Part shown: positions 1-58,360 of the stretch, piece by piece
Position numbering within the stretch: the stretch's first letter is position 1
How the letters are laid out: each line of letters starts with the position of its first letter
NCBI GenBank assembly: GCA_918797485.1
Contig: CAKKNE010000004.1
Coordinates: 4,960,001-5,024,000 of the forward strand
DNA: 64,000 bases
Source of the DNA: Pelagomonas calceolata
Lineage: Eukaryota
Direction: 5' to 3'
Notes under the pieces: generated by a model
What the model saw: only the letters and a program-made list of their open reading frames with translations
Database searches by the model: none
What the model was told of the DNA's origin: nothing
Program-made: the position numbers and the translations under genes

Positions 1-2214
1 ACGCTCGTAAAGCGGCGCGCGCGCGGCGAAGCCACTCAAAACGTGCGCGACGACGCGCGCGCCGCGAAGAGCTCTGAGTACGCGTGGCGAAACAGGCGAA
101 GGCCTCGAGACGCCGCGGCGGACTACTGGTGCGCGCTCGAAAGGCAGGCCTCGATGCGGCCTCGAGCTTGGACAGACAGAACGGCGCGCGAGGCGCGCTT
201 CGCGGGCCGCCGCTTTCTCCGAAGCCCTGCGCGGTCACAATGGTGTGGCGCGGCGAGTCTCAGGGGGTAGCAGCTTCTCTCTCGAGCTGCGAGAGCGCTC
301 TCAATGTTTAAATGCGTAAACGGCCTTTTTGAGCGCGTTTCCGCGCGCGCGGACGCGCGCCATCGCTGCGCGCGACTTTGAGGGACGCTGGGACCGCACG
401 GCGGCCTCGCGGGGTGAATCGGTGGCCCCGCAGAGCAGCGCGGCGCTGCGCGCGCAAACGCGGCCAGGAGGACGACTAGTAGCTTACTGTAGCTAGCCAT
501 TTTTGCCATACAACTCTTCCTAGCAGCGTTTTTGGGATGCGGGGGTGTTAGTATGGCAAAAGCAGCTTCTATGGCTGCGGCAAGGCGCAGCTAGCACCTA
601 TTTGACACTAGGTGATTATAGAACGACGAGGCTCGGCCAAAAATCGGGCAAATTTTGCGAGTTCAGCAAATTCGCTGGCGCTGTTGCCGGCGTTTACGGG
701 GGCCTTGAATAGGCCTACGAACGCCCAGTCAACGATTTTAGCCGCCGTGCGCGCTAGCGCGAGCATTCGGCGGTTTCACCTACGATGCTCTCCGAGCAAT
801 GAAACCGCGCGCGCCGGCGCTCAATTGCGTTAGCGCAATGCTCGCTTGTACGGCGGCAACGTGGCCTGCACCAGCGCTATCCAGCTCTCTCTCAACCGTC
901 GCGTGGTCGCCGCGGCGGCGGGAGACGCGCATGGCGCACGGCGGCGCGTTTACACGGCGGGCACGCCCACGGTCGTCGAGCCGGCCGCTTGACGGGCGTG
1001 ATCGGTCCTATGGCCGCGGGTCTATTTTCGAACTCAGCGAGCTCTGAAGCGCCCCAGCACCTTCAGCTGCGCGAATTCAGAGCCACCGGTCGCCGCCGAC
1101 GGAATGGAGCGGAGGTGCTGAGGATCCTTGGTCGCGGCGCCGGCCGATGAAGGAGATCACGGCGACGCCCTCTACACGCCGTCGACGCCCAGCAGCTGTC
1201 TGCCATGTCTGCAGATTGCGACGCCTGCGACCGAGCGTGGCGAAGTGCGTTCCGAGGGAGGCCGACCGCGTCGATGGCGTCGGTGCCAAACAGCGCCCTT
1301 TAGGCTTCTGGGGCAACGACCGCGGGCGTCGCGCGAGTCCAGGGCCTCTGAGCGGGCAGCGAAAGCCGCTGCCGCGACTCTTCTCCATGGGTTGGTACGG
1401 CGTCGTCGTGCACGAAGCTGCCGGGGCGCGTGCTGGCCCCGATCGAACCGCTGGGCCGGGCCCGCGACGGCCGTCGGCAGCGTCTGATGGACCGCGCCGT
1501 CGCGTTCGGGCCGTGCGGCACTCCTTCTGATCTCGTCGACGGACGCGGCGAGCTCTACGAGCGATGCGGCCGGCGGACGCGGCACGCGGCATCATCCAAG
1601 CGCTGTGGCTCTGCCCGATGGCGAGCGCGCACGCGTCGAGTTCGTGCGTAGCCGCGGACGTCGCGCGCGCGCTACTGCTGCTCTCGTCGGCGTGGCGAGC
1701 CGTTGAGATACTACGGCCGCGCCTCCGACAACATGCCGGCCGATTTGTTAAGTGACTCATTATTGTATATAGTATCTTACATGCAACGGCTCTTGGTGGA
1801 ACAACCGGCGCTCGAGCTCGTGTCCTGCGCCGACTGCGATCAGTGCCCGGGGCCCCCGCGCGCCGTCTCGAGACTCGAGCCCCGGCGGCCGGCAGCTGTC
1901 TGGCGTGGGCGCCCGCGCCGCCGGTCGCGCTCTCGACGGCGTATCTGCGTCGCCGACGAGGTCTGCGTGCGCACGGACAGCAGCTGCACGCGTACGTCGC
2001 TTCGTCGAGGCATTGGCCCTCGACCAGAAGATCGTCCAGCCGTTCCGCGAGGCGTCCACGCTGTCCGCACCGTCGGAAGCACGAAGCTCGTTGTCGGCTT
2101 TGTACGGGGAGAACGGCGCGGCCGCGGCGACAGCCGTCGAAGCAGTAGACGATGCCGTCCTATCGGGGAGAGCTCCGACTACCAAACAAGCACGCCATAG
2201 CCGCGTCGCATCAG

Positions 2215-2575
2215 GCCGCGGATTCTAACGCAGCGCTTCCTCGGCGCGGGCGCGGTGCTGTTCGCGGCGAGGCGTGGCGCGGCGACGACGTCGCGTCCGC
2301 CCTTGCTCGTGGCCACGGCCTGCTTGGTTCCGGCTGCGGCGGCATCGACGGCGGCGTTGACGCGGACTTGGTGAGGAAACGCTGCTCCGTGGGCCGTGTG
2401 TCGCGCGCGTCGCGCCCGGCAGCCGGGTCCGGCTTCGTGCGGCGGCCGCGTCGACGACGTCGTGCTTGGCTCGGCTCTCAGCTCAGAGGCAGGAGGAGCA
2501 GTCCTCAAATCGATGCTCTCCAACGCGCACTGGTCGCGTACGTGTCTTGTGGCGTGTCACAAGCTTTTGGGCAGC
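2215..2575. repeat. Diverged inverted repeat, arm A (partner 4410-4738)
   Basis: e.g. caaatcgatgctctccaacgcgcactggtcgcgtacgtgtcttgtggcgtgtcaca matches the reverse complement of 4410-4476; both arms translate to related HDVVDAAAA...PHQVR...DAAAA...AVATSK fragments. Confidence 0.7.
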
Positions 2576-3624
2576 CCTTTCGGGCGGCTTGATCGCGCAG
2601 ACGGCGTCGCGAACCGGCCAAACAAAAAGCGGCCGCAGCTTCCGGTTGGCATACTAGCCCTCGGTTCTTGAAAACTCACTAGCTTTTAGAACATTTCGGT
2701 GTTAATCCATGAAAATGGGCGGCATTTCATTTGCTTTCGACCTCTCCGTGGGGCTGCGTCGTCAGGGACTCGTTCCTGACCCTTGCGAGACCCGAGGACC
2801 GCCGCCCAGGGAGGCATAGCTCACTTCACCAATCAAACACCGACGCTAGTAGCAATTAAGTTTGTAGCAAACATTAGGTACTAGCCTGTGGAGTTCAGGT
2901 GGCTTTAAAAGTGCTTCAAGGATCTTCCGCCTCCTGGAGGCGACAACGCGGGGGCGAGTCGGTACTTCCGGGGCCGGTTTTCAATTAAGACAGAACGTGG
3001 CTAGGCGTCTTACTGGAGCCTAGCCTACAGAGCCGGGCGCTCAGGTCGACTTGCCTAAAAAGTGCCCTTTGCACTCGCAGGTGCCCCTGGGGCTGCCCAG
3101 TGAGCTGCAGCCCACAGCCAGGCTCCCAAGGCAGCTGCCAAGCAACAGCAGCGGCAGCTGGAGGCAACGTGCCACTTCGACACTCCACTTCCGATTTGGT
3201 GCATGAAGTTGCCCCTGGCCCCTTGCCCGTCACATGAACGCGAAATGCAGGTGCGGGCGGGCTCCGGTGCTCATTGGAACTCGCATGGCAAATTTGATTT
3301 TAGGCTAGGCAAGGTGCAGCTCGCGTGTGCGCCTCATGCGCGCGGGCAGGCGGCTCTCGCTACCATCGACGCGCAGCCGACGGCCGCCTTGGTGCCTTTA
3401 GCTTGGTGGCGCTTCAGTTGACGCTCCGCCCGGCGGGCTGCGTGGACGCCGAGGGGGCGTGGCTGCGAACTGCACGTGCGCTCAGCTTCCAAGTCCCCGC
3501 ATTTCACTCCCTGGGTGCCAGACAAACCGCTACTAGAGGCACTAAGTTGTTTCGGTGGAATTGGAGTCCCCTCGCTACCGCCGCCGTACAGCCGAATCGG
3601 CGCTGCCTCGATCAGGCCGACGTG

Positions 3625-4060
3625 ACTTTGTATGTGCTTCTAGAACCGCAAGAATAGTTTGGCGGCAGTTCTTCACCCTTTTCCGTAGCTTGAGTATGGG
3701 CGAACATAGTCTTCAGGACAATTAGACTGCCCGCCACCGAGCGCCGCCTCGACGGGCCGCCGAACTGCCGAGGTGACGTCGCATGTGCCTCTAGACCTGC
3801 AGAAATAGGTTAGCGGCGGGTCTTCGCCCTTTTCCGTCGCTTGAGTATGGGCGAACATAGTCTTCAGGACAGTTAGATAGCCAGCCACCGAGCTCCGCCT
3901 CGAACGGGCCGCCGAACTGCCGGGGTAACCTCGCATGTGCCTCTAGACCTGCATAAATAAGTTAGCGGTGGGTCTTCGCCCATTTCCGCTGCCTGCGTAC
4001 CGGCGAAGTTATTCTTCAGGACAATTAGACTGCCCGCCACCGAGCACCGCCTCGAACGGA
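3625..4060. repeat. Tandem repeat, ~151-152 bp unit, ~3 copies
   Basis: Unit cttc(a/g)ccc..ttccg...tcttcaggaca.ttaga...gcatgtgcctctagacctgca.aaata.gttagcgg recurs at 3671, 3822 and 3974. Confidence 0.9.
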
Positions 4061-4409
4061 CCACGTTGAGTTGAAATTCGCGTCGACGCCGGTCCATACC
4101 CTGTATCTCGGGTCGTCGGGGGCCGAAGACCAGCAACACAAGGTTACGCTGCCAACGAATACTAGATGACCACACGGGGCGGCCGTCTCGACTCCACCGA
4201 TGCCGCTGGCGGGTGTCGCTCTGGCCAAGAACGCGTCCCTGACGACGCAGTCTCAAGCAGAGGTCGAAAGCGGATCGAAAGCGTCCCTTGTCATAGATCA
4301 ACACCAAGACGGCGCTCCCACTAGGACAGCGCAGACAGCTCTAGGCTGCAGAGCTAATTTGGTCGGTGTGGCACGGAAGAGGGAGCTCGCTAGCAATCGT
4401 GTGGCAGGC

Positions 4410-4738
4410 CGCGCCAAAGCTGTGACACGCCATAACAACGCGCACGCGACCGGTGCGCGTCGGAGAGCACCATTTGAAAGACTGGCTCTCTCCTGCTGAG
4501 AGCCGAGCACGACGTCGTCGACGCGGCCGCCGCGGCACAACATCGGACCCAGCCGTAGGGTACGACGCGCGCAGCACGAGCGCGCGGAGGAGCGCTTCCG
4601 CATCAAGTCCGCGCAGACGCCGTCGCCGATGCCGCCGCCGCCAGAGCCGTGGCCACGAGCAAGCAAGCGGGCGACGCCGTCGCCGCTGCCTGCCGCACGC
4701 AGCACCACGCCAGCGCGTGACGTCAGAATTTGAGTCCG
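4410..4738. repeat. Diverged inverted repeat, arm B (partner 2215-2575)
   Basis: Reverse-complement similarity to arm A, read by eye. Confidence 0.7.
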
Positions 4739-5247
4739 CTCTACGACAAAACGTGTCCAATTCGTCGCCCGACGCCCGCGCGGGTGAGCGCGCCAGTCCG
4801 TGGGCGCTGCGGCGGCGTGGCGGGCATGTTGTGTGTTATCTCGGACGGCGCCGGGTGCCATCCGTGGCGCGGAAAGTGTCGTAGGTGACGCCGCGGTCGC
4901 GCCCGTGCTACCGAGCGGCGCCGCGGCGACACGGACTTGCCGAAGGCTTGAGATTCGGAGGCCGCGCTCCGCCCGTCATGGACCGGCCTGGCACAGGCGC
5001 CGGTCTGCGGAAGTCGTCGGGCCAGCGGCGCGCCGACGAGGCGACGAGAGGCGAGGCGGAGTAAGGGAGTTGTTTGTTTCTTACTGCTCCAACGGCCAGC
5101 AGTGGAACAGCCCTTATTCTTGTTCCGCACGGATCGCGCGCCACGGCAAACCCGCGCCGCGCCGCGCGACTCATGTGCAGATCGACGCGAAGGCACCGCC
5201 AAAGCGCTTGCTACAAGCAGCAAATACGTGATTGAGCGTTCGCATCA

Positions 5248-6570: not shown

Positions 6571-7051
6571 ATACTGTAAGCATTGTTCTTGTTTTTCTGC
6601 GGACCTCGAGGCCTCATGCGCCGTGCGGCGTAGGCGATTGCACGTGTATAGTGCCGACCCTAGGCGACCCCAGGGGGACCTCTTTGGCAGGGATTGACAG
6701 GATTCCACAGGCGCGGCCGCCGTGGACCACGGCGGCATCGTCGCCGCGAATTACAAAATTATTGTTTTCGGCCCCCAGGAAGTGTCCCACTGATCACTTT
6801 GGACCAGTATCGAACGGAGCGATCGTCAAACAGCTGCATGTCGTTCCGTGCTAGTATCTTACAGACGCTACGTACCTTCACGCCGAGCATTCTGGCTGCT
6901 CGGTTCGCGGCGCCAGTGGACTGAACCGAGCCAGCGGGGACCAACGTTACAACAGAGCTACGGGCTGCGACACGCGATATAGCTGTACAGCAACACACAC
7001 GGCGCACTGCGCAAAACAGCTGTACGGCAACACGGGGTCGGCGGAGCAGCC

Positions 7052-10402: not shown

Positions 10403-10427
10403 GTTACGGCGCTAGGACTTGTGAGCG
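10403..10427 (-). repeat. Very short 3'-end copy of the dispersed retroelement-like repeat
   Basis: gttacggcgctaggacttgtgagcg versus gttacggtgctaggactagtgggcg at 49152. Confidence 0.5.
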
Positions 10428-12492: not shown

Positions 12493-12514
12493 GCTAGCGG
12501 CTGAAAGACACTAG
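12493..12514 (+). promoter_or_regulatory. Recurrent intergenic motif GCTAGC-n-GTAAGACACTAG (putative promoter element)
   Basis: gctagcggctgaaagacactag between the divergent GNAT and VTC4 genes; about 10 related copies in the window. Confidence 0.5.
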
Positions 12515-22610: not shown

Positions 22611-25060
22611 ATGCGCATTTTAGCATTGCACGGCTCGGCCCAGACGTCCACACTCTTCGAGCAGCGGCTAGGACCGCTCATCAAGCGCCTTGGTGCCAGG
22701 CAGCACCAGATTACGTGCATCGACGCGCCGCATGCGCTGCCGCTGCGCGACGGCCAGGAAACGTCGCTGGGCTGGTGGCGCGAGGACGGCACGGGCCTCG
22801 AGGAGTCGCTTGACGTCGTCGACGCGGCCTGGCGCGCCGGACGCTACGACGCGCTGATCGGCTTTTCCTCAGGAGGCGCCTGCGCGTTCGCGGTGGCCAA
22901 TCGCCTGCCAGGCCTCAAGGCGCTGATCATTGCCGGCGCGCCGCGGCGGACCGAGGCCGCGCCGCCGCCCTGCTCGACGCTCCTGGTCGCGGGCCGCAAC
23001 GACAAGCTGGTCCCGCGCGACGAGACGCTCGCGCTCGCGCCCGGCGCGCAAACACACGTCCACGAACTGGGCCACAGCCTGCCGTGCCGCGCGCGAGACG
23101 TCGACGTGTACGTGTCGTTCCTGGAACGCGCGGTCCGCGGAGACGAACACGCGGAGACGGCCGCGGCCCGCGATGAGGAGCTCGAGGCCCTGGAGGCGAT
23201 ATTTTCGGACGACTTCCAGCGGGACCGCACGCGTGTCAGGCTCGACCGAGGCCCCTTCCCCGGCGACATCTACCTGGCGTTCGAGATGCGCGGCAGTTAC
23301 CCGGCGGCGGGCGGCGCGCTGCGGCTGACGGTCGTGTCCGATGCGCTGTCGCTCGCCGAGCTGCCGCAGCGCGCGTCACGGTCGATCGCGCGCGCGGCGG
23401 CGGCGGCCGTGAAGGACGACCTGGAGGCGGGCGAGCCCTGCGTCATGTCCGCGGTTCAGGCTGCAAACGATTACATCGCCGACTACGACCCGGAGGCGGA
23501 CGACGAGCCTGCCGCGGGGGACGACGAAGACGCCGCGACGGCGTCGGACAATGACGAGGAGAATGGCGAGGAGGGCGTCGACGCTGCCATTTCGTCGGCC
23601 GAGATATCGGCCTATCGCGCGGCCGCGAAGGAGGTACTGCGGCGGCGGGAGGAGGCGGCAACGACCGTGGCGCCGCCGTCCAAGCACCGCGGCGAATTCG
23701 AGGTGGTCGTCGGCGTCGTCGGCAAGCCCTCGGCGGGCAAGAGCACCTTCTTCAACGCCGTCACGCGCGCGACGGGCGCCCTCGCCGCCAAGGTCGCCGC
23801 CTATCCCTTCACGACCATCGACCCGAACGTGCGCGAGGGCTTGTACGGAGTCCTCGACCCGGATCCGGCCCTTGCGCTCGGACGGCCCCTCTCGGCCTGC
23901 CCGCCGCACGGCCGCGACGCGCAGGGCCGGAGGCTGCTGCCAGTGCTCCTCAAGGACGTGGCCGGGCTCGTGCCGGGCGCCTACGCGGGCAAGGGCAAGG
24001 GCAATAGATTCCTCAACGACTTGTGCGACGCCGACGCGCTGGTCTACGTCTGTGTGGAAATCAAGCAGTGCACCGATGGCGTGGAGGTCGACGCGACGAT
24101 TCAGTAGGCGCCGTGAAATGTTGATTTTCTTCACAGGTCCATGTGGTAGACGCCTCGGCGGAGACCGACGCGGGTGGCGCGGCCATCAATTCCGAAGACG
24201 CGGCCTCGGATGCGCTGGCCTTCGAGATCTCGTGGGTGCGCGAGGAGCTCCACCGGTGGATCGCCGGCAACGTCGCGAGCAAGTGGCGCTCGGTCGTGCG
24301 GCTGGCGCGCCTCGACCGCGACGGGATGCTCGCGCTCGATCGTCTTCTCGACCTCTTCAACGGCTATCGCGCCTCGAACGCGACCGCGCGCCGCGCGCTC
24401 GAAGTCGCGGGCCTTGAGAAGGAGCGAAACATCAGCGGCTGGGGCAAGGATCAGCTGCACCGCCTCGTCGCCGCTTTCCTGGAGGTGCGGTTCCCGACGG
24501 TCGTCGCACTTAATAAATGCGATAGGCCGTCGGCAAAGCAGCGGGTGACCGAGCTGCTCGCCGACGGCGCTGCCGGAGATGATTTGGTGCCGTGCTGCGC
24601 CCGCGTCGAGGCGGCGCTCGTCGTGGCGCGCGCGAACGGTTCTCTCGCCTACGAGGACGGCGCGGGCGCGTTCAATGGCGACGGTCCGGCGGGTGCGGCC
24701 GACTACCTGACGGAATGGGGCACCACTGGAGTCCTCGACGCCATCTCGCGCGCCGTCGCCGGCGCCAGGCCCGTCCACGCCTACCCGGTCGCCGACCTCG
24801 GGTCGCTCCGGGGCGCTCTCTCGCCAGGGCCGCTCGCGACTTGCCTCGCGTTCCGGCGCGGGGCGACCGTCGAGGACGTCTTCATCGCGCTCAAGCGCCG
24901 CGGCGGCGGCGGCGACTTCGTCCGAGCCGACGCCCTGAGCGCGGACGGGTCGAAGCGGCGCCAGGCAAAGCCCAAGGACCCGCTCGGCGCCGACACCGCG
25001 GTGCTCAAGGTGTCGTCGAACCGGAAGGCCGCGTGGCAGCAGCAGAGTGGTCCTGCTTGA
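22611..25060 (+). CDS. Fusion of FSH1/OVCA2 serine hydrolase + RWD domain + Obg-family (Ygr210/YchF-like) GTPase; intron 24042-24136
   Basis: ILALHG, GFSSGG, GRNDKLVP, HELGH; EELEALEAIF...YP (RWD); GKPSAGKST, YPFTTIDPN, DVAGLVPGA, ALVHVVDAS, ALNKCD. Confidence 0.85.
24050..24136. mobile_element. Introner element (intron 24042-24136, GT-AG)
   Basis: TIRs ctgtgtggaaatcaa / ttgattttcttcacag; TSD gtctacgt/gtccatgt. Confidence 0.9.
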
Positions 25061-25164: not shown

Positions 25165-25235
25165 GTCGTTTCTAGAGACTCTGTCTCTAGCAAGGAGGAG
25201 AGAGGGAGAGAGGAGAGAGAGGAGAGAAGAGAGAG
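25108..25235. repeat. Simple repeats (AGGCTG/AGGCTC)n and a GA-rich tract
   Basis: caggct x5 at 25135-25164; purine run 25192-25235. Confidence 0.85.
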
Positions 25236-26665: not shown

Positions 26666-27787
<1,122 letters not shown>

Positions 27788-33637: not shown

Positions 33638-35066
33638 TCAGGGCGCCTCGTCGACCGGCATGTCGTCGGGGGCGGCCTCCTCCGCGCGGAGGACGAAGAA
33701 GCGGACGCTCTGGCCGTCACGCGCGGCCTCGGCCCGGAAGGCCGCGCCGCCGCAGTCGAGCGCGCCGTCCGCGCCGCCGAGGCGGTCGCCGCCGACCGCG
33801 ACGCGGAGGCCGGCCACGTTCGCCGCCTCGCGCGCGGCCGCCTCCCAGGCCGTCTCGGCGAGGCGCCGCTTGCCGCCCGGCAGGTCCAGGGACAGGACGC
33901 CGTACGTGTCGACGGTGCAGAGCACCAGCAGGTGGTCGTCGGCCGCCGGGAACGAGATGACGTCGAAGACCTCGACCACGTGGTGCTTCGCGTCCACGAG
34001 GGGGTAGCAGCCCGGCGGCGGCGGGGGCATGGCGTAGTCCGGCGGCAGGGGCACCGCCGTGCCCAGCGCCTGTGTGGAAATCAACCAGTGCGTCGGGTGC
34101 ACCCGAAAATTCTTCACTAAGTCATTTCTCGGCGATGACGCGGCTGTCCTGGCTCGGTCGAGCGGCGAGGAACCGGCATCGCCACGCCATCGAGCAGGCG
34201 TCGCGTCGATGGCGTGGAGGCCGACGCGACGAGTCAGCACGAACGCGCCGTAAAATTTTGATTTCCACACAGCCCAGCGCGCGCGACTGCAGCAGGCCCC
34301 GCACCGAGATGGGCACGCAGACCGGCGCGCCGCGGCCGTGCCACATGCCCGCGGGGGGGAACCTCCCGGCGCCGAAGTCGCCGAAGAGCGCCCGGTTCGC
34401 CGCCGCGCACGCCGCGCCGACGCGCTCCGGCGGCCCGGCGACGGCGATGGCGCCGTTGCGCCACGCGCCGTCCAGCATGCACGCCGCGCACGAGACGCGC
34501 GCCGGGCCGTTCGCCTCGCGCTTGACGGCGTCGGCGATGGCGTCCGACAGCAGCGCCTCGCGCCGCCGCCGGAGCGCCGCGTCCTCGCCGCGGTCCGCGG
34601 CCGGCCGCTGCGCCGTGCGCTCGCCGGGGCCCGCCGGGGCGCCCTCGGACTTCTCCGGCCGCTTGCCGAAGTCGCGCTCGTCGGAGCCGAAGTGCAGGTC
34701 CGGCGCCTTCGCGTCGCGCGACGCGACGACGTAGCCGCTCGCGCGGCCCTCCGCCGCGTGGCGGCCGCGCGTCCGCGCGAGGCGCGCGCAGGAGCACCCC
34801 GGCGCGTGCACCTTCAGTTGCTGCGCCTGCTTGCTCTCGCGCGGCGCGTGCTCTCTCTGCGGTTGCGGCGTGCGGCGACCTTCGTTGCCGTTGCCACCGC
34901 TGCCGCGCCGGGAGCTGCGGCCGCCGCGCCGCGTGCGGCTCGGCTTCTGCGGCGTCGACTCTCCTCGACTGCTTGCGGGTGCTGCCGGCGGCGTGGGCGG
35001 CTTCCACTCCGAAGCTTGGACGTTGAGCTTGGAGAGGGATGCGGGGGAGGAACTACGAGACGACAT
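33638..35066 (-). CDS. PAM2 motif + C-terminal Nudix hydrolase protein; intron 34280-34070
   Basis: SKLNVQASEWKP (PAM2-like); LDLPGGKRRLAETAWEAAAREA (Nudix box, degenerate end). Confidence 0.65.
34070..34272. mobile_element. Full-length (203 bp) introner element, GC-AG
   Basis: Perfect TIRs; TSD cccagcgc; near-identical to 50531-50733. Confidence 0.95.
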
Positions 35067-35540
35067 CTGTCTGCAGTTCTATATGTGATCGATCCTGCGT
35101 CGTGTGTCACTTCTAGGTGGCGATCAAAAAGGATAGACACACTAGACCGTCCGGAGCTCTCGTAGTCGGTCGAGGAGAGGATCTTGCACGAGGGTGCTAC
35201 CCCCCACGCGGTCGCAACGCTACCCCCGGGGGTAGATGGCGAAGGTACCGGATGTTCGACGACGCCTGACGTCGTACGCAGGTCCAGGTCTGGTGTGCCC
35301 GAACGAACGACGCATTAGCTAAGTGCCTCTACCTATCGGACGCGAGGTAAACCGCCCCGAATTCCTTAATATAAAGATATATTGGGGGTGGCCGACAGGT
35401 ATTACATAAGTATACATACTTGCAATACAGCCGCCTATGATTAATTAAGCTAAGTTTTTGTTGATACCATCTGCACGCTTCGTTGGTAAGAAACTATGGT
35501 ACAAAACATAGAGTTAAACAACCGAAAAAAAAAAAAACAG

Positions 35541-36085: not shown

Positions 36086-36182
36086 TGTTCCCTTCCCCCC
36101 GTCATCCCTGATAGTCCTCCCCCGTCAACAACACCACGCACTCACGCGCCTGGCGCATTCTAATGAGCTCTTGTTTTGGTAC

Positions 36183-36203
36183 CTAGCGCCTCTAAGACAC
36201 TAG
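36183..36203 (+). promoter_or_regulatory. Recurrent intergenic motif
   Basis: ctagcgcctctaagacactag, ~160 bp upstream of ATG 36363. Confidence 0.5.
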
Positions 36204-36362
36204 CAAGCACCGGCTCTCCGACGACGTCTGAACCCACAACCTGTGCAAGGGCTGCCCAACACCCTTATATATTGCGACGGTGCCTCGTTGCAACACAACG
36301 CCTCGTTGCAACACAACGCCTCGTTGCAACACGAACGCCTCGTTGCTGATGAAAAACCTTCC

Positions 36363-38900: not shown

Positions 38901-39155
38901 CGCTCCTGGCCCTGGCACGGTGGCGAGCCCAATCAGTGGCCGTGTACGCGACCTTGTCCGCAGACGCCTACGAGGCCCACGTCAGGCGACGCTCCAGTAC
39001 TGAGACGTCCACGAATCACGCGCACAACCTCCGTGTTTTAGCTGCTAGCGGCTGAGACACACTAGCAAGCGAAGTCAGTTGCAATGAGCCAGTTTGAGGA
39101 GATCATGTCCCCGGGTTGCAGCTTCCAGGGCTCCCGCGTTTGGGAAATGTTGCGC

Positions 39156-39178
39156 GCTAGCGCCTGTAAGGACACTAG
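39156..39178 (+). promoter_or_regulatory. Recurrent intergenic motif (second copy at 39044-39065)
   Basis: gctagcgcctgtaaggacactag, upstream of ATG 39366. Confidence 0.5.
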
Positions 39179-40837: not shown

Positions 40838-41354
40838 CCTGCGTTAATGATGCGACTGCGTTAATGATGCGAAGAACCAATTCAACTCAGTGGTGGCTGT
40901 TTTTTGGCAGCGCAAGGACGCAGCAACTCTTAGCTGTGCCCTGAAGAACCAATTCAACAGTGGCTTTGACAACAAGAGCAACTCTTTAGCTGGCGGTCCC
41001 CAAGAAAAGAGCACCACTCTCTACGCCCTCAGGCCCTAAAACGGCCTCAACCCGGTGCTTGTGCTGGGATTACCTCCTCCTAACAGAGCACAACAGCATC
41101 ATGCATCGAGAGCACACCTGCACCTGTGCAAAGGGCAAATGGTGGGAGCCCCGACAGATGGACAGGCACAGCTGCACGACCTCTGTTACTCGATCACCTG
41201 ATCAACGGACTGCTCGGAGGCATCGCCCCTCGGGCTAGTGTCTCTATCGTGTTAGCTCTCCTCTGGTCAAAAACACACGCGCCGCAGGTGCGAAAGGGGC
41301 ACCGTAACAAAGCGCGCGAGCCGGTTAGCAGTGCTGCTCTCAAAAAAAAAGAGG

Positions 41355-43137
41355 ATGGGCAAGAGTCAGCGCGCCAAGCCGCCGCGCGACGGCGACGACG
41401 CGGCGCGCGCGACGTCGACGCGGGCGGAGGACGCGTTCGAGCTCCTGGCCGACACGGTCGCCGCGGCCGTCGACGCCGTCGAGCTCGCGGCCCACGCGGG
41501 CGGCCTCTTTTTCGGCCTTGGCCTCGTCGCCGCGCACGCCGCGGCCCGCCGGGGCCTCTGGGCGGCGGCCTGCGCCTGGTGCGTCTGCAACTGGACCTTT
41601 TCTGGGCGGCGGCCCGCGCGGGCCGCGGCGGCGGCGGCGCTCGCCGCGGCCCTGAGCGTCGCCGAGAGCGACACAATAGTACTAGCGTCGCCCGCGGAGA
41701 CGGAGGTCGTCTGGCTCCTCCGGCACGCGCTGGCGCCGGCGGTCGTGGGCTGCGTCGGCGCGCACAGCGTCGTCGCGCTCGGGCGCGCGGCGGGCGTGGC
41801 CCTGGCGACCGGAGGCGCGCCGCCGCGCCCCGGCCGCGGCGGCCGCCGGCCGCCGCGGGCGCGCGCGGGCGCGCACCACGCGGTCGTGGCGGCGGCCTTC
41901 GCCTACGCGGCGGCCGTCTACGCGTGCCGCGCGACGCGCGCGCCCCAGGCCAAGGCCCTGCTCGGCCGCGGCTCGACCGCCGTCGCCGCGGCGTGCGCGT
42001 CGCTGGCCGCGGCCGTCGCGGGGCCGCCGCCCCTCGCGCTCGCGGCGGCGGGCGCGGCCGCGGCCGCCGGCGCGGCGCGGGGGGACTGCGCGTTCTGCCT
42101 CGCGTCGGACGCGGGGCCCTCGGTCGTCGCGGACCGTGTGGAAATCAAAGTTTTACGGCGCGTTCGTGCTGACTCGTCGCGTCGTCCTCCACGCCGTCGA
42201 CGCGGCGCCCGCTCGACGGCGCGGCGCCGCCGGTTCCTCGCCGCTCGACCGAGCCAGGGCGGCCGCGCCATCGCCGAGACATGACCTAGTGAAGAATTGT
42301 CGGGTGCACCCGACGCACCGGTTGACTTCCACACAGGTCGCGGAGCTCGACCCGGATCAGCTGGGCGGCGACGTCACGGAGGTCTTCCTGGCGTCGCTCA
42401 AGCTGCTGGGCGACAACGCGCAGCTCGACGGCGACCTGGGGTCGGCCTTCGACGCGGTCGCGCGCCGGCCGCCCGGCGGCGGCGGCGCGCGGACGGAGGA
42501 CGCCTGGCACCGGCGGAACGCGGCGGCGGACTGGGCCGGCGAGCGCGTGCCCCTCCAGCAGGATTTGATTCTCGAGCTGCGCCACACGAAGCTCGAGCTG
42601 CGGCACCACGCGACGCGCCTGGTCTGGGGCGCGGGCGCCGCGCCGCCGCGGCAGCCGGAGCGGGCCTGCGTGGACCTGGGGGGCGGGCGGAGGGCCTGCC
42701 CGGCGGGCGTCGGCACGGCCTGGAGGCTCCGGGGCCACTTCTCCTACGAGGCGCAGGCGCGCAAGGTCGCGCAGCGGCGCCTGAACGTGACCGACGGGCG
42801 GCGGAACGCGCTGCTGTACCCGCCGGGCGCGCACGCCGCCTGGCACGCCAACACGTTCGACAGCACCCCGGGGAACAACTGGCGCCTCTACCTCGCCATC
42901 ACCACGGGCAACGCCACGTTCCTCTTCAGCGACGAGAACGGCACGACCGTGCGGCTCCGCGAATCCGCACGGCCGGGCACGCCGTCCTTCGCCGCGCGCC
43001 TCTTCCGCGTGGGCCGCTGCGACCGGCGCTGGCACTCGATCGTCGTCGACTCGGGGCTGCGCTTCTCGTTCGGCTACATGCTGTCTGATAAGACGGCCGC
43101 GGGGCTCATCGCGCGCGCGGTCCGGACCTATAAGTGA
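41355..43137 (+). CDS. Membrane protein with a C-terminal 2OG-Fe(II) oxygenase/cupin-like domain; intron 42126-42336
   Basis: Hydrophobic N-half; LYPPGAHAAWHANT...WHSIV...RFSFGY. Confidence 0.6.
42134..42336. mobile_element. Full-length (203 bp) introner element, GT-AG
   Basis: TIRs ccgtgtggaaatcaa / ttgacttccacacag; perfect TSD gtcgcgga. Confidence 0.95.
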
Positions 43138-43485
43138 ATTCCTGTGTCTTCGTCTTTTCTCTTGGCCTTCCTTATAAATATTTTGAAAAAGAAACTGTAG
43201 AAGGCGATACAGTCCCGGGGTGCGGCTTCCCGTGGGCTAGCGGCCTGCAAGACTGCAGGACGGTGGCGGCGACGCCTTCCAGGGGGCTAGTGCTGCGGCG
43301 GCGCTAGAGGCTTTCGCGCTAGTCTTAGCGCTGCCTTTCCGGTACACCGCCGCCGTTCCCGATTTCGAGCACCGGGCAGCGCTGGGAAGGTCGGCACAGG
43401 CTTATAGCAGCCCTTTGCCCAGCTCGAGCACGAAGACCACCGTCGGGCACCTCTCGTCCTGGAAACCGGCGTGATTTATTCTATA

Positions 43486-44277: not shown

Positions 44278-44299
44278 CTAGTGTCTTACGAACGCTAGC
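44278..44299 (-). promoter_or_regulatory. Recurrent intergenic motif
   Basis: Reverse complement gctagcgttcgtaagacactag, 106 bp upstream of the minus-strand ATG 44172. Confidence 0.55.
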
Positions 44300-44338
44300 A
44301 AGGCCTCATCGACTGATTCGGTCGAGGACGCGGCGGCC

Positions 44339-44649
44339 ATGATTCAGGCCCAGATCTACCGGGAGTGGGGCGTGGCGATTGTCAAGGGTCGGGCCGACTG
44401 TCTACTGGCTTTGTTGGAGTGTACGGTGCCGAACGCGTCGCCGCGGTCCAAGGTCGCCTGCGGGAAGTCGCGGGACAAGTTGATTGAACGGGCGAACGTT
44501 GCACATTGTTCGGGGGGGGTTGCCGAGGCGGTTCTGCTTAGAAGGAGGTACGCTGTTATGAAAGAAGCCCCGCGCCCGCCGCCGATGAATCGGCGATGCG
44601 CGGTGTCTCCCCCCCCAGGGGCTCCGCCCACTAGTTCTAGCACCGTAAC
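44339..44649 (+). mobile_element. 5'-truncated retroelement-like repeat (possible non-LTR 3' end), longest copy
   Basis: Shares >100 bp with 49152-49285 and 26696-26812, ending ...ctagcaccgtaac; remnant peptide YREWGVAIVKGRADCLL resembles the C-terminus of RLE non-LTR ORFs. Confidence 0.55.
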
Positions 44650-44746
44650 ATCGACTACCGTAGCACCGCATGGCGATGAAAGGTCATACTACTACGCCCT
44701 CTCATCGCGCGGAGAGAGGACGGCGTGCGAGCGGGCGACGGGGGAT

Positions 44747-45004
44747 CTACTGGTGCCGGAGGGCGCCCTCCTGGAATTCCGGGACATCGCATTCGTCGGT
44801 GGCGAGGCAGTCGAGCGCCGTCGCCCGGTTCATGTGGCTATCTTCCATGCAGAACGCGCCGTCGGCGTCGAAGACGATGGTGCATTCGTCGACCGCGGAC
44901 CGAGGGACGAACCGGCTCACGGGGTCGTGGCTCGCGCGGTAGCCGGCGGGCCCGAAGGCGGCGGCCGTGTGTGTGGCGGCGAGCAGCGCGAGGACGAGCT
45001 TCAT
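44747..45004 (-). CDS. Small plastid-targeted Cys-containing protein (CP12-like?)
   Basis: Signal peptide with an ASAFAP-type cleavage site (AAA-FGP); four Cys; C-terminal CLATDECDV. Confidence 0.55.
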   Translation of the reverse strand: MKLVLALLAATHTAAAFGPAGYRASHDPVSRFVPRSAVDECTIVFDADGAFCMEDSHMNRATALDCLATDECDVPEFQEGALRHQ

Positions 45005-45027
45005 GGGAAACGGGCCTGCGCGGGAGA

Positions 45028-45123
45028 CAAGGGATCGGCCCCGAACGCCCGATGCCGTCCGTCGCGTGCAGCCAACAAGGGATCGGCCCCGAACGCCCGA
45101 TGCCGTCCGTCGCGTGCAGCCAA
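45028..45123. repeat. 48-bp tandem duplication
   Basis: caagggatcggccccgaacgcccgatgccgtccgtcgcgtgcagccaa x2. Confidence 0.9.
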
Positions 45124-45537
45124 TGTCAACAGCACGTTGGGCTCCTGCCCTCGGCGTCCGACGACGGCCGGGGCTGCGCGCGGGGCGACGGCTGCGACGA
45201 TTTTTTTGTCTCTCGGTTTCCTGCGCGCATGCGCGGTCTCTGAACGCACCTGATCGGAAACGCCGGGTAATTCTGGCTCGGTGTCAAGCTTCGCGCGAGC
45301 GGGGGGGGGGGGACCAGCGCAAGCCGATGAGAGTTCTGGGGTTGCTGGCGACGGCTGGAGACAAAAACACAGAGTCGTTAGAATCTGGCGTCGGCATAAG
45401 AGGTACTAAGGTACTATACTTTGCGCCTGCACAAGAGGTACTATACTTTGCGCCTGCCGCCTCCTGGGGTCGGCATAATAAAAATAGCCGTTCGCTGCTG
45501 TTATGGGTCATTGACGCGCGTTTGGTGCCGCTGAACC

Positions 45538-46908: not shown

Positions 46909-46973
46909 TTTAATTCTTGTGTATGTATGTATTTTTATTCCGCCCGCGCGCGCGGCCTCTACCACCCGCGGCC

Positions 46974-47822: not shown

Positions 47823-48677
47823 CGGCCTGGGCTGGCGCTCCTTGGCACGATGCGAGAGGGCACGTATGATTATCGAATACGTGCGAACGAGGCTGCCCAA
47901 TTTAAGCCCCGGCCCCGGCCGGTGCCGGGCCGACCCGATATGACTTTTGAGGACCTGTCGCCGTATGCCGTCCAATAACCTTCTCTAAGGAGAGACAAAG
48001 GTCGGTTTTTTGCTTTGGTCCCGACCAGTGTGCATCCAGGGTCCGCCAGATGTCATAGTCCAGATGTCCGCCCTCCCAAAATAATCGCAGCGGCAAACGA
48101 GCGGCCCGCAGCAGCCATCCCTCCAGAGACATCTTGAATGATGGATGGGGCTGGCGGACGCGTGCAGTAGAGTTTTGTCCGGTTTACCCAGCTCTCGTCG
48201 AGCGTGAGCGAGCTGTAAAGCGAGGTCAGCTAAGAGGCGCGACGCGGCGTCTGGACTCAAAGGAATTGGTGGCGTAACGTTTGAACTGTCGGCTGCACGA
48301 CTGAGAGCCCTTCACTGCAAACGCGGCCGTCAGCGAGCGGGCACCTAAAAGTGAGCAGCGTTTTGCAATAGCCCTTGCTGGCTGACCGCTGCGCCGCCGC
48401 GGCGTGCCACCGCTTACTACGCCACCGCCGCGGCCGCTGGTCGCTCCCGTTCGGTCTGCTGGCGCTCCTCCGCCCCGGTCGCTCTCGGGAGCGCCGGACC
48501 GCGAGACGGAGCGCGCGCAGTCGGCGACGTGCGCCGCCGAGGCGTGCCACCGCTGTGTGACGTGGACGGGGAGAGAAAATTAGGAATCACTTCGGCAAGA
48601 CGCGACCGGCCATCACCCCGTCCCCGACGCAGGCGAGCGACGCGCCCGCACCCCCCCCTCCCCCGCGCGCCGCCACC

Positions 48678-49100: not shown

Positions 49101-49151
49101 GTAAGATAGTTCTAGTTTCGCGTGGCGCGGCGGCGGCGAGACAAGCGTATA

Positions 49152-49285
49152 GTTACGGTGCTAGGACTAGTGGGCGGAGCCCCGGGCGGGGGGGGGGAGA
49201 CACCGCGCGTCGCCGACTCATCGGCATAACAGCGCACCTCCTTCTAAGCAGAACCGCCTCGGCAACACCCCCCCGAACAATGTGC
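49152..49285 (-). mobile_element. Truncated copy of the retroelement-like repeat
   Basis: Near-identical to the reverse complement of ~44500-44649, with a small internal deletion. Confidence 0.75.
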
Positions 49286-49298
49286 GGCGAGACCTGCC

Positions 49299-49320
49299 GC
49301 TAGCAGCTGTAAGACACTAG
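49299..49320 (+). promoter_or_regulatory. Recurrent intergenic motif
   Basis: gctagcagctgtaagacactag, upstream of ATG 49482. Confidence 0.55.
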
Positions 49321-49481
49321 TAGTGGTCTGCTAGTAAGTCAGAGCCGGCGTCGAGCTCGTGCGGCTAGCGTCGAGTAAGCTTGCGCCATAGATGAGTGCA
49401 CGGGCATAACATATAGCTATAGTTGGCTGCCCCCTGCATTATCAACATTTGCTGCCAATAGACTGTGCAGTAGTAACAACC

Positions 49482-51081
49482 ATGCTGCTGGCACTCCTGC
49501 TCCTTCTCGCCGCGACAACAGCAGCCCTAGAGCAAGACGGCAAGGACTACGACCTCTACACGACCGCCTCCGCCCTGCGCAACCTCGCCGGCGGCTTCGC
49601 GAGCGAGGTGGAGGTGACCGCGGACGGGCGCGTCAAGAAATTGATCTTTGACGGCACGGCGGACCTGTTGGCTGAGGCGCGGGCGCTGGTCAACGCGCTG
49701 GGCGTCACCCAGGGCGAGGGGTGCGAGGACCGAGATTGTGCCGCAAAAGAGCTGGTGAACATGATGCGCGGGACCGTCGACGCGAGGCGGCGGACGGCCG
49801 GCGAGGCGCTCGACCTCGCGCAGCTGCGCATCGCGACCACGACGCGCGGACATTTCCACGTGGTGCACACGCGGGACTCGTTCGTGGGCGCGTCGCTGGA
49901 GGCCGCGGGCACCTTCGAGGAACCCGCGCTGCGCCTGATGCTCGCGGTCGTCCGGCCCGGCGACGTCGTCGTGGACGCGGGGGCGAATCTGGGCGCGCAC
50001 CTGGTGCCGCTCGCGGTGGCGGTCGCAGACGGTCGACACGCGCCGGTCAGCGACGCGGGCCGGCTGGTCGCCTTCGAGCCGCAGGCGATTCCGCACGCGC
50101 AGCTCCACGCGAGTCTACTCATGCTGGGCTCGGCGCGCATCCCGAGCGCCGTCGTCGCGTACCGCGCCGCCGCCGGCGCGAAAGACGGGGGAGTCGCGTC
50201 AATCCCGACGCTGGACGATCGCGGCGCGCCGCAGAACTTTGCCCAACTCTCGCTGGTCGAGGGGGCGTTCCACGGGCGGCCCGACGCGGACGAGTACGAG
50301 AACTATACCGTCGCCCGTCGGCGCGGAGACCAAAAGCTGTCGTGGCGGCACCCGACGCAGCGGTCGATGTCCACGCAGGTTCCCGTCCGGTCGATAGATT
50401 CCGTGCTGAAGGAAATGTCCCTCGCTTGCCCATCGTTGATAAAGGTGGACGTCGAGGGCCAAGAGGACGACGCGCTGCGGGGCGCCGCGAAGACCATCAA
50501 AAAATGCCGGCCTGTCTTGTACGTCGAGAACTGTGTGGAAATCAACCAGTGCGTCGGGTGCACCCGACAATTCTTCACTAAGTCATTTCTCGGCGATGAC
50601 GTGGCCGCGCTGGCTCCGTCGAGCGGCGAGGAACCGGCATCGCCACGCCATCGAGCAGGCGTCGCGTCGATGGCGTGGAGGACGACGCGGCGAAGGAGGA
50701 CGAACGCGCCGTAAAATTTTGATTTCCACACAGGTCGAGAACAACCACTACCCCGCGGCCGGCATCGCGACGAGGCATTGCCGGGGTGCTGGCTACGTCG
50801 CCTTCCACCACGCGTTCTCCTACGCCGCGCTCTTCCCCAGACCTCGCTCAAGAGAGGAGGCGGCGTACCACGCGGACGTCGCGGACCGGTCGGACTCGCG
50901 GAACCTGCTGTGCGTCGCGTCGGCCGAGCGCCTCGCCGGGCTGCCGGAGACCATTTTCCTTGAGGTCGTGCCCGGCTGGGAATCCGCCGCGGCAGCGCTC
51001 CCGCCGGACCTGCTCGCGAGGCTGACGCGGCCCGTCGACGAGGCGGTGTTGTACCCGAACCGGGGGGCGCCGTGGGAGTAG
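49482..51081 (+). CDS. FkbM-family methyltransferase with signal peptide; intron 50523-50733
   Basis: VVDAGANLGAH, VAFEPQ, LIKVDVEGQE, RPVLYVEN. Confidence 0.85.
50531..50733. mobile_element. Full-length (203 bp) introner element, GT-AG
   Basis: Perfect TIRs; perfect TSD gtcgagaa. Confidence 0.97.
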
Positions 51082-51264: not shown

Positions 51265-51604
51265 CCCCTGCCGGGGGCTGCTCCGCAAGGGTGCCAAATC
51301 CGGCGTGGGGGGTGATGGTTCGGGTTTAAGACTTTTTTATTTGGTTGGGGCTCGGAGGGAGTGTCTGCGCGTGCCGCGCAACCAAAGAGGCGCGGCGTGT
51401 ATCGAGACCCGGAGACTGAGTGGCGCAGACGTATTTATCGAGACGGCGAGACAGCTAAAAAACGGGTGTCACAAGCAATATTGTCGGACCATAAAATACA
51501 GCGCTGCGGACACGCACACGCGCGCGCTAGTGGTAATCCGTTGGAGAGGAGTAGAAAAAGTACTTAAGCGGTCGAACGCTATCTAGAGTGCGGACTGCAG
51601 TCAT

Positions 51605-53086: not shown

Positions 53087-53117
53087 TGGCAGTAATGACT
53101 CCAGCATAGGGCCGGGA

Positions 53118-53564
53118 CTACCCCTTACCATCGTCGCCGCCGAAGGGCAGCCAGAGCCGCGCCGAGCCGCTCACGCAGAGCGCGCCCGTCGCCGCGAGCC
53201 GCAGCGTCGTCGCGCACGTCGCGAAGGCCCCCGCGCGCGCCTCGCGCACGGCGCCGATTGCGATCTCGGACAGGACCTCCGCGCCGACGGGCACGGCCTT
53301 GTCGAATCGGAGGGACTGCGTCCGGTAGACCGCGCCCGGGTGGTGGCGCGCGAAGACGGCCGGGAACGTCGCCGCGAGCAGCAGCCCGGGCACGATGGGC
53401 GCCTCGAAGGGCGGGACCGGCCGCGCGTGGATCGCGTTGGCGTCGCCGGTCAGCCGCGCCCAGGCGTCGAGGTCTTCTCGCGTGAAGACGCGCGTGGCCT
53501 TCATGACGTCGCCCGGCGAGCAGGCCTTCGTCGCCAGCAGGCGCCGTGGGACGCACCGGAGCAT
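53118..53564 (-). CDS. Mitochondrial 3-hydroxyacyl-ACP dehydratase-like protein (MaoC/HTD2)
   Basis: Presequence-like MLRCVPRRLLAT; hydratase-2 motif WARLTGDANAIH; PIVPGLL, PGAVYRTQSLRFDKAVPVG. Confidence 0.8.
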   Translation of the reverse strand: MLRCVPRRLLATKACSPGDVMKATRVFTREDLDAWARLTGDANAIHARPVPPFEAPIVPGLLLAATFPAVFARHHPGAVYRTQSLRFDKAVPVGAEVLSEIAIGAVREARAGAFATCATTLRLAATGALCVSGSARLWLPFGGDDGKG

Positions 53565-53938
53565 CACGCGCGCAGCTCCTTGGCGACGGCGCACACCTTG
53601 GCCACCTGCGCGTCGTCGAGGCGCGGCTCGCGCGTGTCGTTGTCGACGACGCCCCCGACGACGGCGGCGTTCGTCGGCGCCACGTTCAGCACCGCGAGGC
53701 GCTCGTTCCGCGTGAGGCCGAGGTCGGCGCCCGCCAGCGCGGCCGCGGCCGTCGCCGCGGCGTCGTAGCGGCTGCCCGGCAGCGCCTCGAGCGCTTTGAG
53801 CGCCCGGTCGGCGGTGGCGTCGGCCTCCTGGAGCTTCCGCGGCCGCGCGCCCTCCCCCTGCAACCGAGCGGCCCGGTCCTGGAGGATCTGGGTGGCGTCG
53901 ACGTTGGTCGCGGCTTGGTTCGTCGCTACGATCTTCAT
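53564..53938 (-). CDS. RNA polymerase III subunit C17 / Rpb4-family protein (CRCP-like)
   Basis: MKIVATNQAATNVDATQIL N-terminus; HRDC-like LTRNERLAVLNVAPTN...VVDN..EPRLDDAQV; 124 aa. Confidence 0.7.
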   Translation of the reverse strand: MKIVATNQAATNVDATQILQDRAARLQGEGARPRKLQEADATADRALKALEALPGSRYDAAATAAAALAGADLGLTRNERLAVLNVAPTNAAVVGGVVDNDTREPRLDDAQVAKVCAVAKELRA

Positions 53939-54083
53939 GCAACAAACGCTGGGCACCCGAGCGCAGCGCGGCACCTGCTTGCCAATTTGCGACAAGCAGC
54001 GCTAATGCAAGCGCCGGTAGAAGCAGCGCACACACCGATCGGTAGCTGCGGTCGTTCATGCGCTCGCGCCAGGCTCGGGATCC

Positions 54084-54106
54084 CTAGTGTCTTACAGGCC
54101 GCTAGC
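54084..54106 (-). promoter_or_regulatory. Recurrent intergenic motif
   Basis: Reverse complement gctagcggcctgtaagacactag, 146 bp upstream of the minus-strand ATG 53938. Confidence 0.55.
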
Positions 54107-54397
54107 CGGCGGCACTGAACAGGCGTGTCGAACGAGAGCGACGGGGTGCGCGAAGCTTAAGGACCAGTCGACGAAACCCGCGCAGAGTAGCCATGATTGC
54201 GCATTGCAGCACTCTGCCGCCGCGCGTCCCGCTTGGTCCGGACGTAAACGCACTTGAAGACGCGTGACGAGAGATCGCGAGCTGCATTGTTACGTTGTTG
54301 GCGGAAACCAAAGACCAGGAGGCACGGGTGGGAGACAGCCTGCCTCCCTCGCCGACACCTGGCGTCTGTTCAAGGGCGCGGCGAGGCACGCGGAAGC

Positions 54398-56050: not shown

Positions 56051-56246
56051 CCTCTCCGTCGTCACACGCGCATTCCCCGTCGCGTCGAGTGCTGTAAGTA
56101 TCCACACACTCGCTTACGTTTTTCCATGGCTGCCGCCGCCGGCCCGTCGGAAATCTCTCTTGCGTCAGCCGACGATGAGGTCGCCGTCGCCTACCGACGC
56201 CTACGACGCCTGGGTCTTGCGAGCAGGTTTCAAGAAACAATCCGCA

Positions 56247-58262: not shown

Positions 58263-58338
58263 CCTTCTTTTGGTCTCTGGCGTGTGGATCTCTGGCGCGG
58301 GCCCGGCGGTACCCCTAAAAACTCCAAGCGCCGCCACA

Positions 58339-58360
58339 GCTAGCAATTGTAAGACACTAG
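58339..58360 (+). promoter_or_regulatory. Recurrent intergenic motif
   Basis: gctagcaattgtaagacactag between the divergent CCX and lipoyl-domain genes. Confidence 0.55.

What the first reader, a model, noticed from the sequence alone, without database searches (positions are those of the whole stretch)
590..58360. Bipartite intergenic motif GCTAGC-n4-5-GTAAGACACTAG recurring near gene starts
Seen at 590-611(+), 6851-6872(-), 12493-12514(+), 26831-26850(+), 36183-36203(+), 39044-39065(+), 39156-39178(+), 44278-44299(-), 49299-49320(+), 54084-54106(-) and 58339-58360(+), with weaker copies at 3001 and 43236. It consists of two CTAG cores at near-constant spacing and I saw it only in intergenic DNA. 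It usually lies ~50-190 bp upstream of an ATG and points toward it (6851 is an exception). Downstream genes are functionally unrelated. Inference: a lineage-specific core-promoter, nucleosome-positioning or insulator element, or a transposon footprint. I do not recognise it as described.
Basis: partly seen in the sequence, partly recalled or inferred. Interest (0 to 1): 0.72.

Follow-up and report, generated by a model that had tools for sequence, protein, structure and literature searches.

The report
Algal promoter motif that attracts retrotransposon
A short DNA motif that sits between the genes of an ocean alga, mostly near gene starts, is real and kept unusually unchanged, likely serves as a docking site for a protein that helps keep promoters open, and a jumping gene repeatedly lies about 16 bases outside either end of it.

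Summary
Confirmed. The window (Pelagomonas calceolata, inferred) has 12 copies within 4 mismatches (0.2 expected) plus one with a deletion; marine contigs gave 127 further distinct contexts. Consensus AGCTAGCGGCCTGTAAGACACTAGCAAGC is an imperfect palindrome, not a hairpin. 0 of 159 copies lie in predicted coding DNA; divergent and tandem gaps carry it (51 of 80), convergent gaps rarely (3 of 16). It lies 75-300 bp from start codons on BOTH sides, so it is only weakly polar, and marks 13 of 31 window gene starts. The core is constrained while spacer and flanks drift, also in 5 orthologous pairs (one inverted). New: a reverse-transcriptase/restriction-like-endonuclease LINE sits with its truncated 5' end beside the motif, in either orientation: 3 of 4 window sites, two with target-site duplications ending exactly 16 bp from the outer CTAG; 18 of 53 junctions collected by LINE homology alone encode the motif (5 of 1590 shuffles). 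Best reading: a general-regulatory-factor-type promoter site that doubles as a retrotransposon landing mark. No binding protein identified; start-site data are two read piles. About 6% of copies share a longer upstream unit, so a mobile origin is open.

The parts
590..611 (+). motif copy, 3 mismatches; no gene start near
6851..6872 (-). motif copy, 180 bp before SNF2-family gene start 7052 (GCTAG side)
12493..12514 (+). motif copy in divergent gap (GNAT 114 bp; SPX-VTC 125 bp)
26699..26816 (-). two tandem 3' pieces of the LINE, the nearer starting 14 nt outside the motif's CTAG
26830..26850 (+). motif copy with deletion, 54 bp before ubiquitin-NiSOD start
36182..36203 (+). motif copy, 160 bp before ATG 36363; read 5' ends pile at 36234
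39044..39065 (+). motif copy in divergent gap 38900(-)/39366(+)
39122..39178 (+). motif copy 39156-39178 with the shared upstream box of the longer unit
41235..41256 (-). weak copy (5 mismatches), 99 bp before ATG 41355
43236..43258 (+). degenerate copy of the longer-unit type in a convergent gap
44278..44299 (-). motif copy, 106 bp before ATG 44172(-)
44307..44656 (+). 5'-truncated LINE copy (endonuclease-side ORF tail plus 3' UTR) between two copies of an 8-bp target-site duplication; inner copy ends 16 bp from the motif's CTAG
49133..49293 (-). 5'-truncated LINE copy between two copies of a 10-bp target-site duplication; inner copy ends 16 bp from the motif's CTAG
49299..49320 (+). motif copy, exact, 162 bp before ATG 49482; read 5' ends pile at 49365
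54084..54106 (-). motif copy, exact, in divergent gap 53938(-)/54398(+)
58339..58360 (+). motif copy, exact, in divergent gap 58262(-)/58477(+)
60976..60997 (-). weak copy (5 mismatches) in divergent gap 60838(-)/61114(+)
10403..10427 (-). degenerate LINE 3' stub with no motif beside it (the miss among 4 window sites)

Best explanation
The motif is a real, position-specifically conserved 22-24 bp imperfect palindrome near many gene starts of Pelagomonas, likely the binding site of an abundant host protein of the general-regulatory-factor kind that would keep the promoter region open for genes on either side, and a LINE retrotransposon lies about 16 bp outside either of its ends, likely because it uses the site as its integration mark. 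Shown: abundance, exclusion from predicted coding DNA, depletion from convergent gaps, core conservation against drifting spacer and flanks, LINE 5' junctions beside the motif in both orientations, two target-site duplications ending 16 bp from the outer CTAG. Inferred: a (probably two-fold, dimeric) protein binds the two CTAG-centred halves on double-stranded DNA; it acts upstream of transcription starts (two read piles 31 and 45 nt away); the LINE endonuclease nicks at a fixed distance, either by reading the motif itself as R2 reads its upstream motif (about 55%) or by being tethered to the host protein as Tf1 is to Sap1 (about 45%).
For: Copies: 12 vs 0.2 expected; 127 distinct contexts in marine contigs with unrelated flanks beyond about 2 nt left and 5 nt right. 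0 of 159 in predicted coding segments; motif in 27 of 41 divergent, 24 of 39 tandem, 3 of 16 convergent gaps (Fisher p=0.0017). Start codons 75-300 bp away on both sides, medians 174 and 215 bp, 2 of 111 under 50 bp. Among 127 copies exact at 17 core bases the spacer is only 63-77% consensus at four positions and 43 differ in length; unselected window copies have 0-1 core mismatches in 5 of 12, p=8e-5 under neutral decay at the spacer's rate. 5 of 6 locus pairs examined are orthologous and keep the motif in place while flanks are full of indels; one pair has it inverted. No hairpin: z -0.5 to +1.7 in 6 of 6. RNA 5'-end piles at 36234 (10 of 33) and 49365 (8 of 33) in run X24. LINE: ORF tail aligns with PD..DVK endonuclease-type tails, and a distant full-length relative carries RVT_1 (1 of 14 scanned). 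6 of 10 LINE sites start 14-19 nt from a CTAG pair, background 3-4% within 40 nt. Duplications of 8 and 10 bp both end 16 bp from the CTAG. Junction peptides chosen by LINE homology only: 18 of 53 can encode the motif with at most 2 mismatches (7 forward, 11 reverse, median 15 nt), shuffles 5 of 1590; a lone CTAGC is not enriched in the other 29 (7 of 29 vs 20%).
Against: No binding protein, footprint or chromatin data. Start-site evidence is two piles of poly(A) RNA-seq fragment ends from one run; two stronger piles (48197-48214, 45272-45273) have no motif upstream. 18 of 31 window starts lack a strong copy; 3 of 13 strong copies have no start nearby. Gene calls rest on my own Markov model, and tandem gaps may include introns. 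29 of 53 LINE junction peptides show no motif, and 4 further LINE sites in contigs show no clear duplication. Loci were fetched by the exact motif, so orthologous pairs and locus-level adjacency are biased. 9 of 11 copies of a 15-bp box lie 3-67 nt upstream of a motif in one orientation, pointing to a longer ancestral repeat.
Confidence: 0.6

Rival explanations
1. The motif is the end of a decayed, unclassified mobile element (retroposon 3' stub or small DNA element) with no host role; it sits near promoters because those are open, and the LINE targets this older element.
For: About 6% of copies share a 40-50 bp upstream unit in fixed orientation; a CAAGC(AAGC) tail follows; this genome holds 20-30 nt retro stubs; LINEs that target transposons are known (PMC4640811).
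Against: Core exact while spacer is 29% diverged and length-variable; retained at orthologous sites with decayed flanks; no terminal inverted repeat or duplication around the long unit; its box is no more like the LINE 3' UTR than other flanks (scores 15-16 in 7 of 8); T never follows the terminal CTAG (0 of 125). It may still be the motif's origin.
Confidence: 0.13
2. It is a chromatin boundary, replication-origin or fork-barrier site; nearness to gene starts follows from where such sites are tolerated, not from a role in transcription.
For: Orientation-tolerant, about one per 5 kb, unrelated neighbouring genes, copies at 476/590 and 43236 without starts; Sap1 joins promoter opening, fork barrier and retrotransposon targeting (PMC5371812).
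Against: Depleted where genes end head-on (3 of 16) and held at 75-300 bp from start codons. No replication data.
Confidence: 0.12
3. It is a directional core-promoter element that fixes the start site at a set distance.
For: CACTAG side faces a start in 61 of 77, GCTAG side in 62 of 92; tandem gaps 17 toward vs 7 away, p=0.064; read piles 31 and 45 nt past the CACTAG end.
Against: Starts on both sides; inverted at an orthologous site; the two distances differ by 14 nt; in divergent gaps the CACTAG-side gene is closer in only 13 of 28.
Confidence: 0.1
4. The motif exists only as the LINE's recognition site and is created or kept by LINE activity.
For: Fixed geometry like R2's upstream motif at -34 to -22 (PMC10499050).
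Against: Most copies have no LINE beside them (7 sites against 159 copies); the duplications do not include the motif; nothing explains core conservation at empty sites.
Confidence: 0.05

Closest known systems
Sap1 sites and Tf1 integration in fission yeast (PMC5371812, passages read; general regulatory factors Abf1/Reb1/Rap1 recalled)
   Same: A dispersed promoter-proximal site, unrelated target genes, and a retrotransposon whose insertions follow the site.
   Different: Tf1 is an LTR element with integrase; here the element is a target-primed LINE. No Sap1-like protein was identified or searched for; the sequence is unrelated as far as I recall.
R2Bm recognition of RUM (-34 to -22) upstream of the nick (PMC10499050, passages read)
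   Same: Recognition sequence lies on the 5' side of the insertion at a fixed distance; here the motif spans about -16 to -38 from the inferred nick; same endonuclease class.
   Different: R2 targets one site in 28S rDNA in one orientation; this element uses thousands of dispersed intergenic sites (inferred number) in both orientations, and not exclusively.
Target-specific RLE non-LTR clades CRE, R4, NeSL/Utopia (PMC4640811, abstract and passages read)
   Same: RT plus C-terminal restriction-like endonuclease; 5' truncation; short duplications; tandem copies.
   Different: Listed targets are rRNA genes, spliced-leader exons, tRNA/U2 genes, transposons, microsatellites, telomeres; a dispersed promoter element is not in that list. 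Clade (CRE-like) rests on recalled motifs, no tree was built.
Oomycete core-promoter elements INR, FPR, DPEP (PMC3599244, abstract read)
   Same: Lineage-specific stramenopile promoter motifs in a fraction of genes.
   Different: Those lie at or just after the start site and are directional; this one lies upstream and works on both sides.
Helitron 3' end (CTRR after a hairpin, inserted A|T; features recalled)
   Same: Ends in CTAG.
   Different: No hairpin, followed by C in 98 of 125 and never T.

Membership tests
General-regulatory-factor promoter site | Dispersed, abundant, non-coding, upstream of unrelated genes | tested here: met
General-regulatory-factor promoter site | Position-specific conservation | tested here: met
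General-regulatory-factor promoter site | Lies upstream of mapped transcription starts | tested here: inconclusive
   two read piles, one run
General-regulatory-factor promoter site | Bound by a protein; makes a nucleosome-depleted region | not testable with these tools
   no chromatin or binding data
Directional core-promoter element | Fixed orientation and distance to the start | tested here: not met
RLE non-LTR retrotransposon (the neighbouring element) | C-terminal PD-(D/E)xK-type endonuclease after RT | tested here: met
   PD and DVK conserved in alignment A1; RVT_1 only in a distant relative at 34% identity; the element's own RT was not recovered
RLE non-LTR retrotransposon (the neighbouring element) | Common 3' end, variable 5' truncation, target-site duplication | tested here: met
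   duplications clear at 2 sites only
CRE clade | RT phylogeny; N-terminal zinc fingers | not tested
   no full-length close copy retrieved
Helitron terminus | Subterminal hairpin and insertion between A and T | tested here: not met
MITE or DNA-transposon footprint | Terminal inverted repeats with flanking duplication, uniform neutral decay | tested here: not met
   empty orthologous sites were not obtained
Structured RNA or tRNA-derived element | Rfam or tRNA match, stable fold | tested here: not met

The most novel reading that the evidence does not exclude
A restriction-endonuclease LINE has left multicopy RNA genes and evolved to read the master promoter-opening site of one of the ocean's most abundant eukaryotes, dropping copies exactly 16 bp outside it on either side: a new class of sequence-specific retrotransposon target, and the first sequence handle on promoter architecture in pelagophytes.
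Probability: 0.35. Interest if true: 0.82.

Novelty: new variant of a known kind. Interest (0 to 1): 0.64.

Why it matters
It gives a defined, mutable sequence for asking how promoters are set in Pelagomonas calceolata, for which the two genome papers checked mention no motif, and a design element for algal expression constructs. It also adds a dispersed promoter element to the known targets of restriction-endonuclease LINEs, with a measurable 16-bp rule that makes 'direct reading versus host tether' testable, a question central to how these elements avoid genes and to their use as insertion tools.

Tried and rejected
No whole genome was held, so no genome-wide count. Viral contigs: 0 matches. 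Prokaryote genomes: 14 matches in 596 billion bases, no enrichment. tRNA and Rfam: none. Hairpin role rejected. Helitron end rejected. By eye the long unit's box resembled the LINE 3' UTR; not significant in 7 of 8, dropped. Idea that the LINE needs only CTAGC: not supported. Idea that its own 3' end is a second target: tandems exist (26699-26816, L114) but 0 of 29 junction peptides encode that end; left open. L007/L075 share another repeat and are not orthologues. Four weak LINE-like hits (E 0.008-0.029) were dropped before counting sites. Pfam gave nothing for the LINE tail and PDB nothing for a long relative; plasmids nothing; the protein atlas gave no answer. Micro-intron or splice-acceptor reading considered and not pursued: copies lie upstream of the two read piles. 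Further start-site mapping and an empty-site test were not obtained. Earlier-findings look-ups returned two unrelated prokaryotic/phage notes and no look-alikes.

Full report
Source. The window is eukaryotic, 70% G+C, with introner-type repeats. Its prenyltransferase is 65% identical to the cluster holding Aureococcus anophagefferens and is itself on a 5.3-Mb record. Of 14 proteins from motif-bearing contigs that I looked up, 12 were in the collection and 5 fell in clusters with a named member; all 5 names were Pelagomonas calceolata. Those contigs share introners and the LINE with the window at 87-95%. I infer P. calceolata; some contigs are diverged relatives (L016 vs L042, coding DNA 82-85%).

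Observation. All 11 listed copies are in place. With at most 4 mismatches there are 12 copies against 0.2 in simulations; at 6 mismatches counts equal chance. 476-497(-) was missed; 3001 is at chance level. Base counts give AGCTAGCGGCCTGTAAGACACTAGCAAGC, information ending about 2 nt left and 5 nt right; spacers of 5, 4, 3 nt in 84, 36, 7. The two halves are an imperfect inverted repeat around the centre, but single strands fold no better than shuffles in 6 of 6. CTAG pairs not used as seeds peak at 17-19 bp. No match in viral contigs, 14 in prokaryote genomes.

Position. Coding segments were predicted with a self-trained 3-periodic model (window calls agree with Pfam hits). 0 of 159 copies are inside them. 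The motif is in 27 of 41 divergent, 24 of 39 tandem and 3 of 16 convergent gaps (p=0.0017). The nearest gene shows its start on the CACTAG side in 61 of 77 and on the GCTAG side in 62 of 92; in tandem gaps it points to the start 17 times and away 7 (p=0.064). Start codons lie mostly 75-300 bp away on both sides. In the window 13 of 31 hand-listed starts have a strong copy within 350 bp, 3 more a weak one, 15 none, including ribosomal protein L23. Stranded RNA reads pile their 5' ends at 36234 and 49365, 31 and 45 nt past two copies, in one of two runs' listed rows; piles at 48197-48214 and 45272-45273 have no motif (14 rows were not shown). This is a promoter-proximal element of about 40% of genes, weakly polar at most.

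Constraint. In copies exact at 17 core bases, four spacer positions match consensus in 63-77% and a third differ in length; at that divergence an exact core has probability 0.003. Unselected window copies have 0-1 core mismatches in 5 of 12 (p=8e-5). Of 6 locus pairs aligned, 5 are orthologous: the motif stays while flanks are broken by indels, and in L038/L079 it is inverted. These pairs were fetched by the motif and are biased, but would hardly be found if sites were lineage-private (inference).

The neighbouring element. A repeat lies beside 3 window copies. At 44307-44656 it reads as the tail of an ORF whose longer copies carry PD..DVK and a conserved end shared with RT-bearing relatives: a restriction-like-endonuclease LINE, CRE-like by recalled motifs. 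Copies share one 3' end and are 5'-truncated. Both clean window copies have duplications, 8 and 10 bp, whose far ends lie 16 bp from the outer CTAG. Of 10 sites (9 after dropping four weak hits and merging tandems, plus the stub at 10403), 6 start 14-19 nt from a CTAG pair, one at 36, one at 81, two have none; 3-4% of non-coding positions are within 40 nt. In the window the LINE adjoins the GCTAG side, in L040, L069, L114, L121 the CACTAG side, always with its 5' end toward the motif. One DNA run shows a further joint of this kind (table 5c, read by eye). For a test free of motif selection I took 225 protein records found by LINE homology; 136 were close copies and 53 had distinct non-LINE N-termini, which are flank read in frame. 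18 of 53 can encode the motif with at most 2 mismatches (24 with 3), against 5 (43) of 1590 shuffles; 7 forward, 11 reverse; distances 3-28 nt at codon resolution, median 15. The other 29 show no motif and no excess of lone CTAGC; some are not true junctions.

Mechanism. Two constrained CTAG-centred halves with a tolerant spacer, no fold, use in both orientations and a fixed band of distances from start codons fit a double-stranded binding site of an abundant, probably dimeric factor that opens promoters (inferred; yeast general regulatory factors recalled; Sap1 from PMC5371812). The LINE nicks 16 bp outside either end, so the motif spans about -16 to -38 from the nick, where R2Bm reads its upstream motif at -34 to -22 with a strict distance rule (PMC10499050). 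Direct reading and tethering cannot be separated here.

Origin. 9 of 11 copies of a 15-bp box lie 3-67 nt upstream of a motif, same orientation, within a shared unit of about 40-50 bp, about 6% of copies. No terminal repeats or duplication bound it, and its likeness to the LINE 3' UTR is not significant. The site may have been spread by an old mobile element and then kept.

Literature. Seen: PMC10499050, PMC5371812, 10.1101/2021.10.25.465678 and 10.1101/2024.10.30.620910 as passages; PMC4640811 abstract and passages; PMC3599244 abstract; others as search listings only. 'Motif' occurs 0 times in both pelagophyte genome preprints and 'promoter' 0 times in the second; the second reports LINE counts for Aureococcus only. 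Searches listed nothing describing this motif or targeting; one search listed 15 of 35 papers, all unrelated 10-mer hits. The preprints' supplements (repeat tables) are closed and Repbase is not held, so the LINE family may be catalogued. Known RLE targets are rRNA, spliced-leader, tRNA, U2 genes, transposons, microsatellites and telomeres.

Verdict. Real, constrained, promoter-proximal site, undescribed in what I could search, with a retrotransposon targeted to it. New variant of a known kind; interest 0.64.

Noticed in passing
window 26904-27783 (+): Ubiquitin fused to nickel superoxide dismutase (Pfam ubiquitin and Sod_Ni), with a 5' intron and an introner.
   Followed up: partly
window 34070-34272, 50531-50733, 61429-61631, 42136-42340 and shorter copies at 13377, 24050, 27485, 28616, 35791, 52390: Introner-type elements of about 200 bp with terminal inverted repeats, 87-94% alike among the four longest.
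   Followed up: no
window 2244-4716: Gene-poor block with nested inverted segments (2244-2576/4407-4716; 2698-2794/4210-4305) around three 152-bp tandem units at 3601-4055; fold-back-like.
   Followed up: no
window 53121-53938 (-): Two ORFs on one strand with abutting stop and start (124 aa unknown, then a MaoC-like domain), possibly one transcript.
   Followed up: no
window 22611-25060 (+): FSH1 hydrolase, RWD and YchF-type GTPase domains in one gene.
   Followed up: no
window 44643-45273 (-): Strongly condition-dependent transcript (depth 566 in X24 vs 25 in X21) whose 3' end lies at the LINE's 3' end.
   Followed up: no
window 25172-25190: A perfect CTAG-bounded inverted repeat of different inner sequence in a motif-less gap.
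   Followed up: no
window 35134-35145: Right-half-like variant with a CTAG 29 bp upstream, in a divergent gap lacking a full copy.
   Followed up: no
L126, L128, L129, L134: Motif copies with the CA-rich tail inside marine prokaryote bins, probably algal contigs binned by mistake.
   Followed up: partly
flanks of motif copies in loci and window (e.g. 36249, 39317): GGGCAGC/GCTGCCC is strongly enriched within 200 bp of the motif (47 vs 10 expected), perhaps a second promoter element.
   Followed up: no
L007:~1030-1110 and L075:~620-705: An 87-bp repeat (92% alike) starts 8 and 38 nt after the motif at two unrelated loci, possibly another element inserted beside it.
   Followed up: no
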